Part shown: piece after piece, positions 24,141 through 30,573 of the stretch
Layout: each line of letters starts with the position of its first letter
Numbering within the stretch: position 1 is the stretch's first letter
Assembly: GCA_021399345.1 (NCBI GenBank)
Contig: JAAFKI010000070.1
Coordinates: 1-33,940, forward strand
DNA length: 33,940 bases
Reading direction: 5' to 3'
From: Candidatus Heimdallarchaeota archaeon
GTDB taxonomy: Archaea > Asgardarchaeota > Heimdallarchaeia > Heimdallarchaeales > Heimdallarchaeaceae
Program-made: the position numbers and the translations under genes
The notes under the pieces: generated by a model
The model's input: only the letters and a program-made list of their open reading frames with translations
Told to the model about the DNA's origin: nothing
Databases searched by the model: none

Positions 24141-25685
24141 ATGAAACACTATCTCGAAGTACAATTTACATTAAGTGGTCCCTTACCTTCTGAAAGTAAG
24201 GGTGAAATTGAAGAACTTTTCAAACGATTCAGTGAAAAAACCCAAGAATCAAGAGATAAAGGGGAATTCAAGATAACTTCATGGAAAACTAAGGAAACTA
24301 AACTTGATATAATAATTACATCTGTTGATTCACTTTCTCCACATGTGGCAGTACTCAGATTAAGGAAACAGCTCTCTGCTGCGATAGGTAAAAAATACCG
24401 CGTAGGACTAAGAGGTTTTGCCTTTATCAAATATATCATTGAAACAGAATTGGAAGAAAAACCTGTTAAAGAGTTCACTTTACCATTAGTAAAAAATCTA
24501 GAGTTCTTTGAAGAAGAAGGAAAGAGTTTTGTTAAAATCGAAATTGATCCAGAAATCGAGGAAGACTTTGTAGAAAAAGGAGCAATTGAACGTATTGTGC
24601 GTCGAGTAGGTGAAAAAATTTCCAAACAACATTATGGAGCTAAGAAAGAACATCATCAAATTTCCTGGTATAGTGGGGAAAAGAAACATCATACTGAAGA
24701 AAATCCTACTCAGCTTATGCAAAACGCAAATTGGATTCAACGAACAAATTACAGAAACCAGTGGATACTGACTCCTACTATAACCGCTTTAGCTGAAGCA
24801 TTAAAACAAATAATGATAGATTATATTTATGAACCTCTAGGGTTCGATCAAATGATGATACCAAAACTGGTAGATTGGTCAATTTGGTTGAGATCTGAGC
24901 ATGCTGAAGGAATTTATCAAGGGGGTTTTGAACCCTATTTCGTAGTTCAACCAAAGTCTGCTGACCCCGAATACTTTGAAGAGATTGCGGATTATATAAC
25001 AATAACAAAAACTATCCCTACAGAGAAACTAGCTGAGAAAGTTTCTGCGCCCATTGGAGGATTATCTTACGCCCAGTGCCCCCCATTTTGGTCATTTTTA
25101 CAAGGTAAAACCATAGCAAAAAAAAGCCTTCCAATTAAAATATTTGACTGGAGTGGCCCCACCTATCGCTATGAGTCAGGTAGTGCTTACGGATTTGAAA
25201 GAGTTGATGAATTACACCGTATTGAAACATTATTCATAGGTTCTCCTGAACAAGCTAAAGAAATAGGAATACAAGTCAAAGACAAACTTAGGGTTATCTT
25301 TGAAGAAGTTCTTGATTTAGAGGTTAGAGAAGCCAAAGTTACTCCCTGGTGGTTACAACAATCTGCTCATGAGGATGAAATGGATACTGCTGAAGATCTA
25401 GTTGTCGGAACTATAGATTACGAAGCTTATATGCCCTATAGAGGTACTCGAGAGAAGAGTGAATGGTTAGAAATTCAGAATATTTCTATAATTGGTCAGA
25501 AATATCCAAAAGGTTTCTCTGTTAAAGCTGAAGGAAATATTGAATTGTGGTCTGGATGTGGTGGTGGTAGTTTCGAGAGATTTCTTACAGCTTTTATTTC
25601 TCAGAAAGGTTTGGACATGAATAATTGGCCTGAGAAATTTAAGAAATATATTGATAAACTTCCAGAACCAGTAAAATTCCATTAA
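24141..25685 (+). CDS. serS: Serine--tRNA ligase, methanogen (zinc-dependent) type
   Basis: N-domain HVAVLRLRK.L...IGKKYRVGLRG; YAQCPPFW; SGPTYRYESG..GFERVDELHRIE; WLEIQN; WSGCGG.SFER. Confidence 0.93.
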   Translation: MKHYLEVQFTLSGPLPSESKGEIEELFKRFSEKTQESRDKGEFKITSWKTKETKLDIIITSVDSLSPHVAVLRLRKQLSAAIGKKYRVGLRGFAFIKYIIETELEEKPVKEFTLPLVKNLEFFEEEGKSFVKIEIDPEIEEDFVEKGAIERIVRRVGEKISKQHYGAKKEHHQISWYSGEKKHHTEENPTQLMQNANWIQRTNYRNQWILTPTITALAEALKQIMIDYIYEPLGFDQMMIPKLVDWSIWLRSEHAEGIYQGGFEPYFVVQPKSADPEYFEEIADYITITKTIPTEKLAEKVSAPIGGLSYAQCPPFWSFLQGKTIAKKSLPIKIFDWSGPTYRYESGSAYGFERVDELHRIETLFIGSPEQAKEIGIQVKDKLRVIFEEVLDLEVREAKVTPWWLQQSAHEDEMDTAEDLVVGTIDYEAYMPYRGTREKSEWLEIQNISIIGQKYPKGFSVKAEGNIELWSGCGGGSFERFLTAFISQKGLDMNNWPEKFKKYIDKLPEPVKFH

Positions 25686-26395: not shown

Positions 26396-27418
26396 ATGAT
26401 AGACTTACGTTCTGATACCTTTACACTTCCTTCAAAGGAGATGTTGGAAACTATTCTAACTGCTGAACTTGGAGATGATGTTTGGGAGGAAGATCCAACT
26501 GTAAAAGAGCTTGAAGCTTTAACCGCTAAGATACTTGGTAAGGAAGCGGGTCTATTAGTTTCTAGTGGTACTCAAGGAAATTTAGTAGCAAATATGACAC
26601 ATCTTAATCGTGGGGATGGTGTTGTTCTTGAAAAAGAGAGTCACATCTACTTATACGAAGTAGGAGGGCTTTCACAACTAATTGGAGGATTTCCTTTTCT
26701 AATTGAAGGAAATAATGGTTTAATGGATCCTAAGGATGTTGAAGCGATTTTTACACGAGGTTATAATGTCCATTGGGTAGATCCGAAACTTCTCTGTTTA
26801 GAAAATACTCACAACAGAGGAGGAGGAAAAATTATTCCTAAAGAAAATATTGACCAGTTAGCCAAAATTGCTCATGAAAATAACGGTTTAGTTCATATGG
26901 ATGGAGCAAGAGTATTCAATGCAGCTGTTGCTACAGGAATGGCAGCTTCTAAGATTGTTGAGAACGCTGATAGTGTCCAAATATGTTTAAGTAAAGGACT
27001 TGGCTGTCCTATAGGGTCTGTAATAGCTGGAAATGAAGAATTTATTAATAAAGCCAGAAGACAGAGAAAACTTGTTGGCGGGGGAATGCGACAAGCTGGT
27101 ATTATAGCCGCTCCTGGAATCTACGCATTAAACAACATGATAGACAGATTAGCTGAAGATCATAAACATGCAAAGATGCTTGAAAAGGTTCTTACAGAAA
27201 TTGAGGAATTGAAAGTTAAGCCAGTTGACACAAATATTGCTGTTATTGATACTTCTGCTAGTAGATGGTCTGCTGCTGATGCTCGAGATGGTTTGGAAAA
27301 ACATGGCATTAAAGTAACTTATATGGGAGATCAGTTCTTCCGAATGGTAACCTACTTTGGTATAACTACAGAAGATATTGAGCAAGTTGTTTCAGTAATT
27401 CCAGAGGTCTTTAAGTAG
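26396..27418 (+). CDS. ltaE: Low-specificity L-threonine aldolase (PLP)
   Basis: MIDLRSDT, SGTQGN, LENTHN, HMDGAR, CLSKGLG (PLP Lys), GGGMRQAG. Confidence 0.95.
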   Translation: MIDLRSDTFTLPSKEMLETILTAELGDDVWEEDPTVKELEALTAKILGKEAGLLVSSGTQGNLVANMTHLNRGDGVVLEKESHIYLYEVGGLSQLIGGFPFLIEGNNGLMDPKDVEAIFTRGYNVHWVDPKLLCLENTHNRGGGKIIPKENIDQLAKIAHENNGLVHMDGARVFNAAVATGMAASKIVENADSVQICLSKGLGCPIGSVIAGNEEFINKARRQRKLVGGGMRQAGIIAAPGIYALNNMIDRLAEDHKHAKMLEKVLTEIEELKVKPVDTNIAVIDTSASRWSAADARDGLEKHGIKVTYMGDQFFRMVTYFGITTEDIEQVVSVIPEVFK

Positions 27419-27525
27419 AGAATCTCTATCTTCAAACAATTTTCTCTTACACTCTCAAGCTACATATATATCCGGATATTTTGAGGAGTAACATATACTT
27501 TTTATATCATATTTTTGGTGTTCAC

Positions 27526-28365
27526 ATGATACATGTGTCAATCGATGACTATCTAGACGGTCTATTATCAGACACCGCAGAACCGTCTAAAAAAGCTATT
27601 ATGAAGCTTACTAAATTAATAGAGAATTTTGGAGAAATAATGGTCAAAAGCACCGAAAGAATGGAAGACTATATTGACACTCTCACTAATAGAATCAATG
27701 CTATTGAACATGCATTGGGCGTTTCATCTCGTGCTCCAGCTCCTTCAGCTGCACCATCATTTGATTCTCCTGTAGCTGCACCAGCAGCAGCAGCAGCATC
27801 TCCAAACTTAACAGCAAGTAACTCAAATCCAGTTGCAGCACCTAATTTATCCGCTACAGTTGGAACTCCTGATCTCAGTGGAGGTGGAGGAGGAATTCCC
27901 GCTCCATCTGGTAGTCAAGGATCCACCGGAGGAGGAGTCAGTAGTGCTGATCTTATGAAAGCAGCCTCCAATTTACAAAAAGCACCAGAACCTACACCAG
28001 GCGAACCTGGCGCACCTGGAGAAACACCAGTTTTTAGTCCATTTGGAGTTAGTGCTACCGACATCCAAGATGTTAGATCTGGATTAACTAAAGTTGATCC
28101 TGATGAACACAGGAAAGAAAGAACAGCAGCTGCAAGTGGAGAACCAGGTTCGATGCCTGCTAGCATGGCACTTAACTTAGAAGTCAAAGATGCTTTAGCA
28201 AAACGAAAATCAAGAACAGATGAAGGTGAAGATGCTGAATTTGAACCAACTCCTGTTGCACCAGCATCACCGCAAAAATCAACTAAACAAATGAAAGAAG
28301 CCTTGCAAGGAGAATTACGCGATGCGTTTAGCAGTCTTCTAGAGAGCGACACAAAAGAGGATTAA
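27526..28365 (+). CDS. Hypothetical protein with a coiled coil, Pro/Ala/Gly linker, tandem WH2-like motifs and a C/acidic-like tail (candidate actin regulator)
   Basis: GGTG at 27517-27520 precedes ATG 27526. Internal repeats GVSSADLMKAASNLQKA / GVSATDIQDVRSGLTKV and ALNLEVKDAL / ALQGELRDAF; KRKSR-TDEGEDAEFE. Confidence refers to the CDS; the function is inferred. Confidence 0.85.
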   Translation: MIHVSIDDYLDGLLSDTAEPSKKAIMKLTKLIENFGEIMVKSTERMEDYIDTLTNRINAIEHALGVSSRAPAPSAAPSFDSPVAAPAAAAASPNLTASNSNPVAAPNLSATVGTPDLSGGGGGIPAPSGSQGSTGGGVSSADLMKAASNLQKAPEPTPGEPGAPGETPVFSPFGVSATDIQDVRSGLTKVDPDEHRKERTAAASGEPGSMPASMALNLEVKDALAKRKSRTDEGEDAEFEPTPVAPASPQKSTKQMKEALQGELRDAFSSLLESDTKED

Positions 28366-28458: not shown

Positions 28459-30573
28459 ATGACATTAAATTTACAAAAATACATTAACTTTTTATTTAAA
28501 CAAAATACAAAAGAAAAACTGAATGATAACTTACAGGCTATTTTTAAAGAATCCAAAAATTATTCGGACAATATAAATGACCCTTATTATCAATGCAAAA
28601 ATGAAGAATTATTAGAAGTGTTTACTACTTCTTGGTCAGGTATTCAAGAGGAAATATCTGAAAGTATGGTTTATTATGCTTTTACATTATACTGGCTAGA
28701 TGCAATTAGTCTAGAATTGTACAGAGCAATACTACAAGAACTAGGATCTCAAAAACTGATTACAGATGAGTTACTAGTCGCTAGCTATTGGATGTTCTGG
28801 AAAAAACAAAATAAAATCGAAAAACCTAGAAGATATAGCTTTTACTCATTTCTTGAATTTATTAGGAAAATGGGTGTAGACCCTCTTAGTTTTCAAGATT
28901 TCGTCAATACAACTAAAAAGTTATTTCCAAATATGAAACTCTCAGAAAGGGAAATAGAGATTGGCAATGAAATTGAAAGATTTATCAAAAATATACAAGA
29001 AAGACCCCAGTATATAGAAGAGTTTTCAAGCTCAATTACTCCTGATACGATGAAGTATCTAGATTTCTATGTAGATCTTGAATTGATAAATAATCTAGCT
29101 TATTTCTCTGTAAAGAATATTAGTAAACAAATCAATTTAGAAAAGAAGATTTCTCTCGCTAATTTCCAGAAAATAATTGAGAAGGAATATGCCTCGAGAA
29201 AGATGAGAACTGTACCAACAGTCATAGATCCTGTTCTGGAACCCCATCTAGCAAAATTTGATGCAAAAGCTGTTTCAATGGAAAAGCTTGCAACACTACC
29301 AAAAGAACAAATGAAAGAATACGCTTCTATTAAGGCTTATTCAAGTCCAAAAAACGCTCAAAAAATACGTATCAGTTTTCTTGGTGGAGGCAATATTGGA
29401 AACATGGGGATTTTAGTTCAACATGACAATAATGCAATTTTACTTGATTTCGGGATGAGTGTTGCTAATTATTCTATTCCTAGATGGCATCCTTCACTCA
29501 AATATGTAAAAGCTGTTTTGGTAACTCATGCACATCTGGATCACACAGGGGCTTTACCTTATCTCATCAGACCGGAAAACGGGAAAAGGTGGTATGCAAC
29601 TCAGACTACTAAAATGTTAGCTGAAAAACTACTCTACTCAACCTCTTCTATCCTTCGTTCAAAGGGTATTACTAAAAAGAATGCCTCCCCATTTCAGAGT
29701 GTTTTTCTAAACAAATCAAATCTTATTAACCTCTTTAACGAATTTAATCCACTAAAGATTAACAAGACAGTAGAGGTAAGTTCAGGTTTTAAGGTAACCC
29801 CGTATTCAGCATCTCATCTTTATGGAAGTGTAAGTTACAAAATAGATGTTTTTGGAACAACAATTCTATTTACAGGAGATTTTTCAACTGATGAAAGCGA
29901 GTTATTCCCTGGAGCAAAACTTCCAACAGATTGTGATGTAACTATCTTTGATGGTACTTACTATAATAGAGAAACAGTGAAAGAAGATCCAAATACAGTG
30001 ATTTTACGAGCAGCGGAAACATGTGATCGCTTAATTATTCCTGCTTTTTCTGTTGGTAGAACTCAAGAAATGATCAAGAGATTAGAAAGATTAAGAGTAT
30101 CTGCTAAAAGAAGAGTTATGACTACTGGACTTGCAGCTGATGTTTCAAAATCCATGGGTTTAAGAGCTAAATTTGACATAGTCAAAAGCCTCTCAGCTGA
30201 CACTTTTGAAAATAGTGATATTGTTGTAACTGGTCATGGAATGTTACAGGGTGGAACAGCTAGGAAACTGATAGATGAAACCAGTTCAGATGAAAACACA
30301 GGCATTCTTATCTGTGGGTATCAAGCGCCCAACACACTTGGCTTTGCGCTCAAGAACAATCATTCCATTGCTAAAAAGAGATATCAACAAAAGGTATTTT
30401 CAGCTCACATAAGTGGACACAGTAGTTCAGAATCATTGAATGAATTCATCGATAAACTGAGTGGTAAAAAAGTGATGGTTCATACACCTGATAGAACAGT
30501 TCCAAGAGAGGAACATAAAGGGCTTATTATACCAAAATACAATCAGGAAATAATACTTAAAAACAAAATATAA
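28459..30573 (+). CDS. Beta-CASP metallo-beta-lactamase ribonuclease with an about 300-aa uncharacterised N-terminal extension
   Basis: FLGGG, LLDFG, THAHLDH, SHLYGS, FTGDF, DGTY, PAFSVGRTQE, GMLQGG, GYQAPNTLG, SGH, VH. Confidence 0.9.
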   Translation: MTLNLQKYINFLFKQNTKEKLNDNLQAIFKESKNYSDNINDPYYQCKNEELLEVFTTSWSGIQEEISESMVYYAFTLYWLDAISLELYRAILQELGSQKLITDELLVASYWMFWKKQNKIEKPRRYSFYSFLEFIRKMGVDPLSFQDFVNTTKKLFPNMKLSEREIEIGNEIERFIKNIQERPQYIEEFSSSITPDTMKYLDFYVDLELINNLAYFSVKNISKQINLEKKISLANFQKIIEKEYASRKMRTVPTVIDPVLEPHLAKFDAKAVSMEKLATLPKEQMKEYASIKAYSSPKNAQKIRISFLGGGNIGNMGILVQHDNNAILLDFGMSVANYSIPRWHPSLKYVKAVLVTHAHLDHTGALPYLIRPENGKRWYATQTTKMLAEKLLYSTSSILRSKGITKKNASPFQSVFLNKSNLINLFNEFNPLKINKTVEVSSGFKVTPYSASHLYGSVSYKIDVFGTTILFTGDFSTDESELFPGAKLPTDCDVTIFDGTYYNRETVKEDPNTVILRAAETCDRLIIPAFSVGRTQEMIKRLERLRVSAKRRVMTTGLAADVSKSMGLRAKFDIVKSLSADTFENSDIVVTGHGMLQGGTARKLIDETSSDENTGILICGYQAPNTLGFALKNNHSIAKKRYQQKVFSAHISGHSSSESLNEFIDKLSGKKVMVHTPDRTVPREEHKGLIIPKYNQEIILKNKI

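What the first reader, a model, noticed from the sequence alone, without database searches (positions are those of the whole stretch)
27934..28095. Ungapped tandem 17-aa repeat with the WH2/thymosin signature
Seen: GVSSADLMKAASNLQKA (27934-27984) and GVSATDIQDVRSGLTKV (28045-28095) share G-V-S-x-x-D-[LI]-x-x-[AV]-x-S-x-L-x-K-[AV], with a 20-aa Pro/Gly spacer. The DNA has diverged outside the first codons while the pattern is kept, which suggests selection on the motif. Established: WH2 is a short amphipathic helix followed by an LKK[TV]-like tetrapeptide, and tandem WH2s nucleate filaments (Spire, Cobl, VopL/F). Inference: two G-actin binding sites.
Basis: partly seen in the sequence, partly recalled or inferred. 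Interest (0 to 1): 0.8.

Follow-up and report, generated by a model that had tools for sequence, protein, structure and literature searches.

The report
Heimdall archaeal tandem WH2-like docking helices
Two copies of a short, strongly conserved helix-plus-L-x-K motif sit in a mostly disordered protein found only in one order of Heimdall-group Asgard archaea. The protein is laid out like eukaryotic actin-assembly factors, but the motif fails every formal WH2 test I could run and actin binding remains untested.

Summary
Both 17-residue peptides are at the stated coordinates, 20 residues apart, inside a 279-aa ORF (27526-28365, +).

In this one sequence the repeat is not significant (110 of 1000 shuffles match it). 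At family level it is real:
- The two motif profiles align in register (hhalign E 6e-5).
- Leu and Lys of L-x-K-[AV] are invariant.
- Copy number runs from 1 to 3 among relatives, and one middle copy looks like a recombinant of the other two.
- A motif model hits only these two sites in the 3.27-Mb genome.

The cassette occurs only in the window's own order of Heimdallarchaeia (families f1, f3, f4).

The layout is: N-terminal coiled coil, Pro/Ala linker, the motifs, a helix that fits the published WASP 'C' pattern, an acidic run with Phe, and a terminal helix. This recalls WASP VCA and the VASP EVH2 region.

WH2 membership is not shown:
- The Pfam WH2 model and all PDB sequence searches find nothing.
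- The helix has one conserved large hydrophobic residue instead of three.
- The linker is 1-2 residues instead of 4-10.

This scan has found the same family on other DNA before, with the same outcome. Verdict: a good experimental candidate, not a demonstrated WH2.

The parts
27526..28365 (+). Whole gene, 279 aa (P0002), single copy in the genome. Unannotated family of Heimdallarchaeales.
   Evidence: ORF. About 60 homologs at 41-97% identity, all 'hypothetical protein' of Heimdall MAGs. Only 9 clusters among 1.84 billion representatives. Single copy.
27538..27714 (+). N-terminal helices (residues 5-63), a probable coiled-coil oligomerisation domain.
   Evidence: AF2 helices 6-14 and 19-63 with pLDDT 78-90. 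Mean identity 0.79. PDB and Pfam give only coiled-coil noise, plus one relative (P0068) just over the CCDC53 cut-off.
27721..27924 (+). Disordered Ala/Pro/Gly linker with [AG]-P-N-L-[SG] repeats.
   Evidence: pLDDT below 50. Length 54-105 aa among homologs. P-N-L units are repeated up to about 15 times in f4 relatives.
27934..27984 (+). Motif copy 1 (residues 137-153): short helix, then L-Q-K-A.
   Evidence: AF2 helix 140-148. Motif model E 3.7e-9. L150 and K152 invariant.
27985..28044 (+). 20-residue Pro/Gly spacer between the copies.
   Evidence: Length 17-42 aa in homologs.
28045..28095 (+). Motif copy 2 (residues 174-190): short helix, then L-T-K-V. Many homologs read LKKV here.
   Evidence: AF2 helix 177-186. 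Motif model E 2.2e-10. L187 and K189 invariant.
28096..28137 (+). Conserved charged helix after copy 2 (residues 191-204).
   Evidence: AF2 helix 192-204. Mean identity 0.74.
28159..28215 (+). Amphipathic helix ending in the basic cluster K-R-K-S-R (residues 212-230). It resembles the WASP 'C' region and the VASP FAB.
   Evidence: AF2 helix 212-232. L216, V220 and L224 are spaced by three residues and followed by KRK, which fits the C-domain pattern of PMC3298513. The VASP FAB peptide scores best here, but with p about 0.11.
28216..28266 (+). Acidic run containing a Phe, followed by x-Pro.
   Evidence: Alignment. Length is variable and identity 0.47.
28279..28353 (+). C-terminal amphipathic helix (residues 252-276), the most conserved part of the protein. 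It is shared with a 140-aa short form in another Asgard class.
   Evidence: Identity 0.94. AF2 helix 252-276. Short forms in L082 and L083.

Best explanation
The two 17-mers are copies of one duplicable docking module: a two-to-three-turn amphipathic helix, capped by Gly/Asn/Ser and followed at once by L-x-K-[AV].

Inferred, not shown: each copy binds one actin subunit the way WH2 domains and the VASP G-actin-binding site do. [quoted passage not shown] The Leu/Lys anchor would run up the acidic face.

The N-terminal coiled coil would cluster several chains, so the assembly would hold several actin monomers next to a basic helix that may bind filaments. It would then act as a nucleation or elongation factor for the organism's eukaryote-like actin.

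Shown: the module, its conservation, its copy-number variation and the overall layout.
For: The module is real and under constraint. Its copy number is 1-3. In the closed genome G007 the middle copy combines a copy-2 helix with a copy-1 tail, so the copies are interchangeable units. The f4 relatives have three near-identical copies ending LKKV or LKSV. The f3 relatives have one copy.

In P0002 the AF2 helices stop just before Leu, and Gly/Asn/Ser precedes Leu in 43 of 48 copies.

The downstream helix meets the published C-domain pattern and is followed by an acidic run. From the Leu of copy 2 to that helix is 29 residues, against 28 from GAB to FAB in human VASP (coordinates from PMC10340426).

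The genome has the system such a protein would act on:
- two actins about 60% identical to eukaryotic actin;
- two two-domain gelsolins;
- an ARPC4-like gene.

Heimdall gelsolin is known to use the same actin cleft together with an LKKT-like element (PMC9433394). No Asgard nucleator or elongation factor is described in the papers I found.
Against: Pfam WH2 gives no match at E<=10 in the own genome. In five f4 genomes it hits only other loci. hmmscan of 22 family members gives none. Six PDB sequence and profile searches return no WH2, thymosin or VASP chain.

Against the published WH2 pattern (PMC3298513):
- only one large hydrophobic residue is conserved in the helix, at -7, and the others are mostly Ala;
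- the linker is 1-2 residues, not 4-10;
- the first basic residue is Gln or Thr in this protein.

The VASP GAB peptide does not align to the motifs (p about 0.2).

In the f4 relative P0190, AF2 runs the helix into or through LKKV at low confidence. The helix-then-strand shape is therefore not a consistent prediction.

The cassette is missing from the other families searched in this class. In the Asgard genomes of other classes the whole-protein profile found only N-terminal matches, in one family. All of these also have actin.
Confidence: 0.4

Rival explanations
1. The helices are docking motifs for a partner other than actin, for example another cytoskeletal, membrane-remodelling or regulatory protein. 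The protein would be a multivalent disordered scaffold, and its likeness to actin factors would be convergence of short linear motifs.
For: All WH2, VASP and thymosin sequence tests fail. The conserved face at -7, -4/-3, 0 and +3 is an ordinary a/d amphipathic pattern. In P0190 the predicted helix can run through LKKV. A congeneric genome has a 926-aa protein with about eight similar helical units in front of a TPR-like region. One unit matches the motif model (E about 1e-3), which suggests a general-purpose docking helix. The best PDB look-alike of the f4 repeats is a CHMP4B tail, at a noise-level E of 0.36.
Against: No alternative partner is indicated by gene neighbourhood, fusions or any profile match. 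The combination of motif, C-pattern helix, basic cluster and acidic run is what actin factors carry. It occurs in only this ORF of 2847 in the genome, although that pattern was defined after seeing the protein.
Confidence: 0.37
2. The cassette is a true V-V-C-A module. The motifs deliver actin, while the C-like helix and acidic run activate an archaeal Arp2/3-like assembly (ARP plus ARPC4-like).
For: The C-domain pattern is met position by position in most homologs: three hydrophobics spaced by three, a Lys/Arg doublet or triplet, then Ile/Leu/Val. An acidic run with a conserved aromatic or hydrophobic residue follows. The genome encodes an ARP-like protein and an ARPC4-like protein at 32.5 bits, above the 22.2-bit cut-off.
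Against: No ARPC2 was found, in a genome that is 88.6% complete. The aromatic residue is Phe, not the Trp typical of WASP-family acidic tails (my own knowledge), and it is not at the C-terminus, because a further conserved helix follows. The f3 and f4 relatives have different acidic segments. No WH1, WHD or WAHD-type head is present. The CCDC53 likeness rests on one relative.
Confidence: 0.08
3. The motifs have no specific ligand. They would be conserved helical segments that tune the dimensions or self-association of a disordered protein, and the WH2 look would be chance.
For: The single-sequence repeat score is not significant. L-x-K preceded by a hydrophobic residue is a very loose pattern. 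AF2 confidence is low, 48-72 over the motifs.
Against: Leu and Lys are invariant across 40 homologs, motif length is fixed between linkers rich in indels, and the register is preserved through duplication and recombination. These argue for a specific contact.
Confidence: 0.1

Closest known systems
WH2 / beta-thymosin actin-monomer-binding motif (Pfam PF02205; N-WASP, WIP, Spire, Cobl, VopL/F)
   Same: A short amphipathic helix is followed by a Leu-basic-[VAT] anchor. The copies are tandem, separated by Pro/Gly linkers, in a disordered protein. Many homologs read exactly LKKV.
   Different: There is no profile match. The helix has one conserved large hydrophobic residue, not three. The helix-to-Leu linker is 1-2 residues against 4-10. 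The first basic position is Gln or Thr in this protein. Binding is untested.
Ena/VASP EVH2 region (GAB 223-239, FAB 259-278, coiled coil; PMC10340426)
   Same: The order is a Pro-rich region, then a G-actin-site-like motif, then an amphipathic helix with a basic cluster about 28-29 residues later, together with an oligomerising coiled coil.
   Different: The coiled coil is N-terminal, not C-terminal, and there is no EVH1. Tests with the GAB and FAB peptides were not significant (p about 0.2 and 0.11). An acidic run and a further helix follow.
WASP/WAVE/WASH-family VCA module (PMC3298513)
   Same: The order is Pro-rich, V, V, C, acidic. The C-like helix satisfies the published C-domain pattern.
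   Different: The V motifs fail the published WH2 pattern. The acidic part has Phe rather than a terminal Trp (the Trp feature is from my own knowledge). No complete Arp2/3 complex was detected, and there is no family-specific N-terminal domain.
Lifeact (first 17 residues of yeast Abp140; sequence as printed in PMC5708734)
   Same: Residues 4-17 of Lifeact score best on motif 1 (start 141), in a register that matches Leu/Ile, Lys, Leu and Lys.
   Different: The match is borderline (6% of shuffles reach it). The key Phe of Lifeact aligns with an invariant Ala. Copy 2 matches poorly.
LKKT-like element in the D1-D2 linker of Asgard two-domain gelsolins (PMC9433394)
   Same: It is the only WH2-like element so far tied to actin by a structure in Asgard archaea. 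This genome has two such gelsolins.
   Different: It lies inside a folded gelsolin, not in a free-standing helix motif. This genome's own gelsolin linkers show no notable similarity to the motifs.

Membership tests
WH2 (Pfam PF02205) | Match to the curated profile (cut-off 23.1 bits) | tested here: not met
   No match at E<=10 in the own genome. No WH2 row for 19+3 family members. In five f4 genomes the hits are elsewhere and all below cut-off.
WH2 (Pfam PF02205) | N-terminal amphipathic helix of about 10 residues | tested here: met
   AF2 helices 140-148 and 177-186 in P0002. This is a monomer prediction with pLDDT of about 48-72.
WH2 (Pfam PF02205) | Three conserved large hydrophobic residues in the helix, [VILM]-[LM]-x-x-[IL] (PMC3298513) | tested here: not met
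   Only position -7 (Ile/Leu) is a conserved large hydrophobic residue. Positions -4 and -3 are mostly Ala, or Val/Arg.
WH2 (Pfam PF02205) | Linker of 4-10 residues between the helix and LKKT (PMC3298513) | tested here: not met
   There are 1-2 residues (Asn, or Ser-Gly) before the Leu.
WH2 (Pfam PF02205) | L-[KR]-[KR]-[VTA] anchor | tested here: inconclusive
   This protein reads LQKA and LTKV. Leu and the second Lys are invariant. Of 48 distinct copies, 12 have Lys at +1, which gives LKKV or LKKA.
WH2 (Pfam PF02205) | [quoted passage not shown] | not testable with these tools
   The co-folding job was not run by the tool. Biochemistry is needed.
WASP-family VCA | C domain: three large hydrophobics spaced by three, a Lys/Arg doublet or triplet, then a hydrophobic residue (PMC3298513) | tested here: met
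   L216, V220 and L224, then KRK. The closing Ile/Leu/Val is present in many homologs but is Thr in P0002. The pattern alone is loose: 726 of 2847 ORFs carry it.
WASP-family VCA | Acidic tail with a conserved Trp at the C-terminus (feature from my own knowledge) | tested here: not met
   The acidic run has Phe/Leu/Met and is internal. A conserved helix follows it.
WASP-family VCA | Arp2/3 complex present in the organism | tested here: inconclusive
   An ARP-like gene and an ARPC4-like gene at 32.5 bits are present. ARPC2 was not found. The genome is 88.6% complete.
Ena/VASP EVH2 | GAB and FAB sequence likeness | tested here: inconclusive
   The GAB peptide scores best in the Ala/Pro linker, p about 0.20. 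The FAB peptide scores best at residue 212, p about 0.11.
Ena/VASP EVH2 | EVH1 head and C-terminal tetramerisation coil | tested here: not met
   No such Pfam matches. The coiled coil is N-terminal.
CCDC53/WASHC3 (Pfam PF10152) | Match to the curated profile (cut-off 24.6 bits) | tested here: inconclusive
   One relative, P0068, scores 26.9 bits (E 7e-6) over 45 coiled-coil residues. P0002 gives no match. In 83 genomes of the class no match is over the cut-off, and the three weak hits do not coincide with any locus that the family profile found.

The most novel reading that the evidence does not exclude
The Heimdallarchaeales-specific cassette (one to three helix-LxK motifs, a C-pattern basic helix and an acidic run) was inserted into an older Asgard coiled-coil protein. 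In this reading it is a working actin-assembly module. That would make it the first free-standing G-actin-recruiting nucleator or elongation factor known outside eukaryotes. It would be either an ancestor of WH2/VCA/EVH2 modules or an independent invention of the same solution.
Probability: 0.3. Interest if true: 0.9.

Novelty: new variant of a known kind. Interest (0 to 1): 0.55.

Why it matters
Asgard archaea have eukaryote-like actin, profilins and gelsolins. In the papers I could search, no factor that starts or elongates their filaments has been identified. [quoted passage not shown]

A small, soluble, single-copy protein with defined candidate actin-binding peptides, in the lineage closest to eukaryotes, makes that question testable with simple peptide and pyrene-actin experiments. 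If the motifs bind something else, the family is still a conserved multivalent scaffold of unknown role in these organisms.

Tried and rejected
- **Co-folding.** I submitted the own actin (alignment A2) with residues 130-204 (alignment A3). The tool did not fold it because the actin looks eukaryotic. There is no verdict, and I made no further attempt.
- **WH2 profile and PDB searches.** Pfam WH2 was tried by hmmscan and by six-frame genome search. PDB sequence and profile searches used the whole family, motif 2, the pooled motif model and relatives with LKKV. None found a WH2-type match.
- **CCDC53/WASHC3 link for the N-terminal coil.** One relative is just over the cut-off, but none of 83 genomes in the class is. 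I treat it as coiled-coil likeness.
- **Peptide tests.** VASP GAB, VASP FAB and Lifeact peptides were slid along the family profile. None is significant.
- **Gelsolin linkers.** Comparison with the genome's own gelsolin linkers shows no notable likeness.
- **ESM Atlas.** It gave no usable hit for the motif region, and only sub-threshold Asgard hypothetical proteins for the whole protein.
- **MIM1/ESCRT idea.** An ESCRT-III MIM1-type reading of the f4 repeats rests only on a noise-level CHMP4B hit.
- **Proteome regex.** The composite V-V-C-acidic pattern singles out this ORF (1 of 2847, none in 5 shuffles). The pattern was written after seeing the protein, so this is description, not evidence.

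Full report
**Observation.** Window 27934-28095 (+) translates to the two quoted 17-mers with a 20-residue Pro/Gly spacer. They are residues 137-153 and 174-190 of a 279-aa ORF, 27526-28365. Homologs start at the ATG at 27526 or a few codons later, not at the upstream TTG.

The copies share 7 identical and 3 conservative positions, without gaps. At DNA level 24/51 bases agree: 8/9 in the first three codons and 16/42 in the rest. This is an old duplication, not a recent DNA repeat.

**Is it more than chance?** Not from this sequence alone. In this low-complexity protein the ungapped BLOSUM62 score of 33 is reached by the best self-match of 110 out of 1000 shuffles. Family evidence settles it.

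About 60 homologs exist, all unnamed proteins of Heimdall-group MAGs. A search without a word index over 1.84 billion cluster representatives finds only nine clusters, all of this family or fragments of it.

- In a 40-sequence alignment L150, K152, L187 and K189 are invariant.
- The motifs have fixed length and 0.67-0.69 mean pairwise identity. The flanking linkers vary in length (17-42 and 54-105 residues) and have 0.47-0.53 identity.
- Copy number varies. Closed Heimdallarchaeum-type genomes have three copies, and the middle one joins a copy-2 helix to a copy-1 tail. Relatives in family f4 have three near-identical copies ending LKKV or LKSV. Relatives in f3 have one.
- A 22-column model of 32 copies hits only these two sites in the 3.27-Mb genome (E 2.2e-10 and 3.7e-9).
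- Within the class, the model hits only f1 (25/30), f3 (3/3) and f4 (8/12), all families of the window's own order. It hits none of the single f2 genome of that order or the 36 genomes of f5-f7.

**Anatomy of the protein.** The AlphaFold2 model (40-sequence alignment, mean pLDDT 57.9) has these elements:

| Residues | Element |
|---|---|
| 6-14, 19-63 | N-terminal helices, pLDDT 78-90 |
| 68-136 | disorder |
| 140-148 | helix of motif 1 |
| 177-186 | helix of motif 2 |
| 192-204, 212-232, 252-276 | further helices |

LQKA (150-153) and LTKV (187-190) are not helical in this model. The residue before the invariant Leu is Gly, Asn or Ser in 43 of 48 distinct copies, as expected for a helix cap. 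In the three-copy f4 relative P0190, a low-confidence model instead runs the helices up to or through the Leu. The helix-then-extended-anchor shape is therefore suggested for this protein, but it is not a robust family-wide prediction.

After the motifs comes a helix with L216, V220 and L224 spaced by three residues, then KRK. In many homologs Ser-Arg-[Ile/Leu/Val] follows. This is the general pattern that Kollmar et al. give for the WASP-family C domain (PMC3298513; sequences). Next are an acidic run with a conserved Phe/Leu/Met followed by x-Pro, and then the most conserved element, a C-terminal helix (identity 0.94).

A 140-aa short form in another Asgard class keeps the N-terminal coil (E 3.8e-5). 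By eye it also keeps the Pro-rich stretch and the C-terminal helix, but it lacks the motifs, the basic helix and the acidic run. The cassette that contains the finding therefore looks like an order-specific insertion into an older protein.

**Tests of WH2 membership.** All were negative or inconclusive.

- The Pfam WH2 model gives no match at E<=10 in the own genome. It gives no row in hmmscan of 22 family members. In five f4 genomes it hits only unrelated short frames.
- PDB sequence and profile searches return no WH2, thymosin or VASP chain. The queries were the family, motif 2, the pooled motif model and LKKV-bearing relatives.
- The published definition is a helix with three conserved large hydrophobics, a linker of 4-10 residues, and L-[KR]-[KR]-[VTA] (PMC3298513). 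Here only position -7 is a conserved large hydrophobic, the linker is 1-2 residues, and the first basic position is Gln or Thr in this protein. It is Lys in 12 of 48 distinct copies.
- The human VASP GAB and FAB peptides (from PMC10340426) were slid along the family profile. GAB scores best in the Ala/Pro linker (p about 0.20). FAB scores best on the basic helix at residue 212, but with p about 0.11.
- Lifeact residues 4-17 score best on motif 1, with p about 0.06. I treat this as a lead only.

**Context.** The genome is 88.6% complete and belongs to the Heimdallarchaeaceae.

- It encodes two actins that are about 60% identical to eukaryotic actins, and an ARP-like gene.
- It has two two-domain gelsolins and an ARPC4-like gene above the Pfam cut-off.
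- ARPC2 was not detected, nor was a profilin recognisable by Pfam.
- Structures show that Heimdall gelsolin binds the classic cleft of rabbit actin and runs an LKKT-like element up its face (PMC9433394). The surface a WH2-like motif would need is therefore used in this lineage.
- Gene neighbours give no clue. They are threonine aldolase upstream, conserved within f1, and a beta-CASP nuclease downstream. The neighbours are different in f4.

**The decisive calculation could not be done.** The co-folding job with the organism's own actin was not folded by the tool. I did not try to get round that.

**Reading.** The repeat is a genuine, constrained and duplicable docking helix.

- Most likely (about 0.4), it is a divergent, short-linker WH2/GAB-like actin site in an oligomeric assembly factor.
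- Almost as likely (about 0.37), it docks a different partner. A related helical unit occurs about eight times in a 926-aa TPR-like protein of a congeneric genome.
- A full VCA/Arp2/3 mechanism (0.08) or no specific ligand (0.1) is less likely.

**Earlier notes.** This scan's notes show the same family flagged on several other genomes, with the same verdict from other agents. I checked parts of their claims. I found the short form. I found the array protein, but without a recognisable DNA-binding domain. I confirmed that the CCDC53 link is weak. I found no gelsolin-linker likeness for this protein.

Noticed in passing
window 27721-27924; L033 901-2088 (+), L036 862-2022 (+): The disordered linker carries repeated [AG]-P-N-L-[SG] units. 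There are 2-3 in this protein and about 15 near-perfect G-G-P-N-L-G-G-A-P-S units in f4 relatives. The unit is conserved across families, so it may be a binding motif of its own. Profilin is a guess.
   Followed up: no
L081 491-3271 (-) (G030, same genus): A 926-aa protein begins with about eight tandem helical units of about 30 residues that resemble motif 2. One unit reads L-K-K-V and matches the motif model (16 bits). A TPR-like C-terminal region follows. It was not found in the window's own genome with this query.
   Followed up: partly
L082 628-1050 (-), L083 569-1009 (-): A 140-146-aa short form in another Asgard class has the same type of N-terminal coil, a Pro-rich stretch and a C-terminal helix like residues 252-276. 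It has no L-x-K motifs, basic helix or acidic run.
   Followed up: partly
L049 (G000 contig C175, 52571-52876, +): An ARPC4-like gene scores 32.5 bits (Pfam cut-off 22.2) in the same genome. No ARPC2 was detected.
   Followed up: partly
window 28459-30573 (+): In a 704-aa beta-CASP metallo-beta-lactamase protein the Pfam domains start only near residue 318. The first roughly 300 residues match no family.
   Followed up: no
window 24141-25685 (+): A class II tRNA-synthetase core follows the tRNA_bind_4 N-terminal domain (E 5e-23). From my own knowledge, this combination is known from the methanogen-type seryl-tRNA synthetase.
   Followed up: no
window 26396-27418 (+); L030 365-1417; L031 2749-3465: The threonine-aldolase-type (beta-eliminating lyase) gene directly upstream is syntenic with this family in distant members of f1, but not in f4. 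There is no obvious functional link.
   Followed up: partly
window 27500-27507: A TTTTATAT element lies 19-26 nt upstream of the ATG. It could be an archaeal TATA box for a leaderless or near-leaderless transcript.
   Followed up: no
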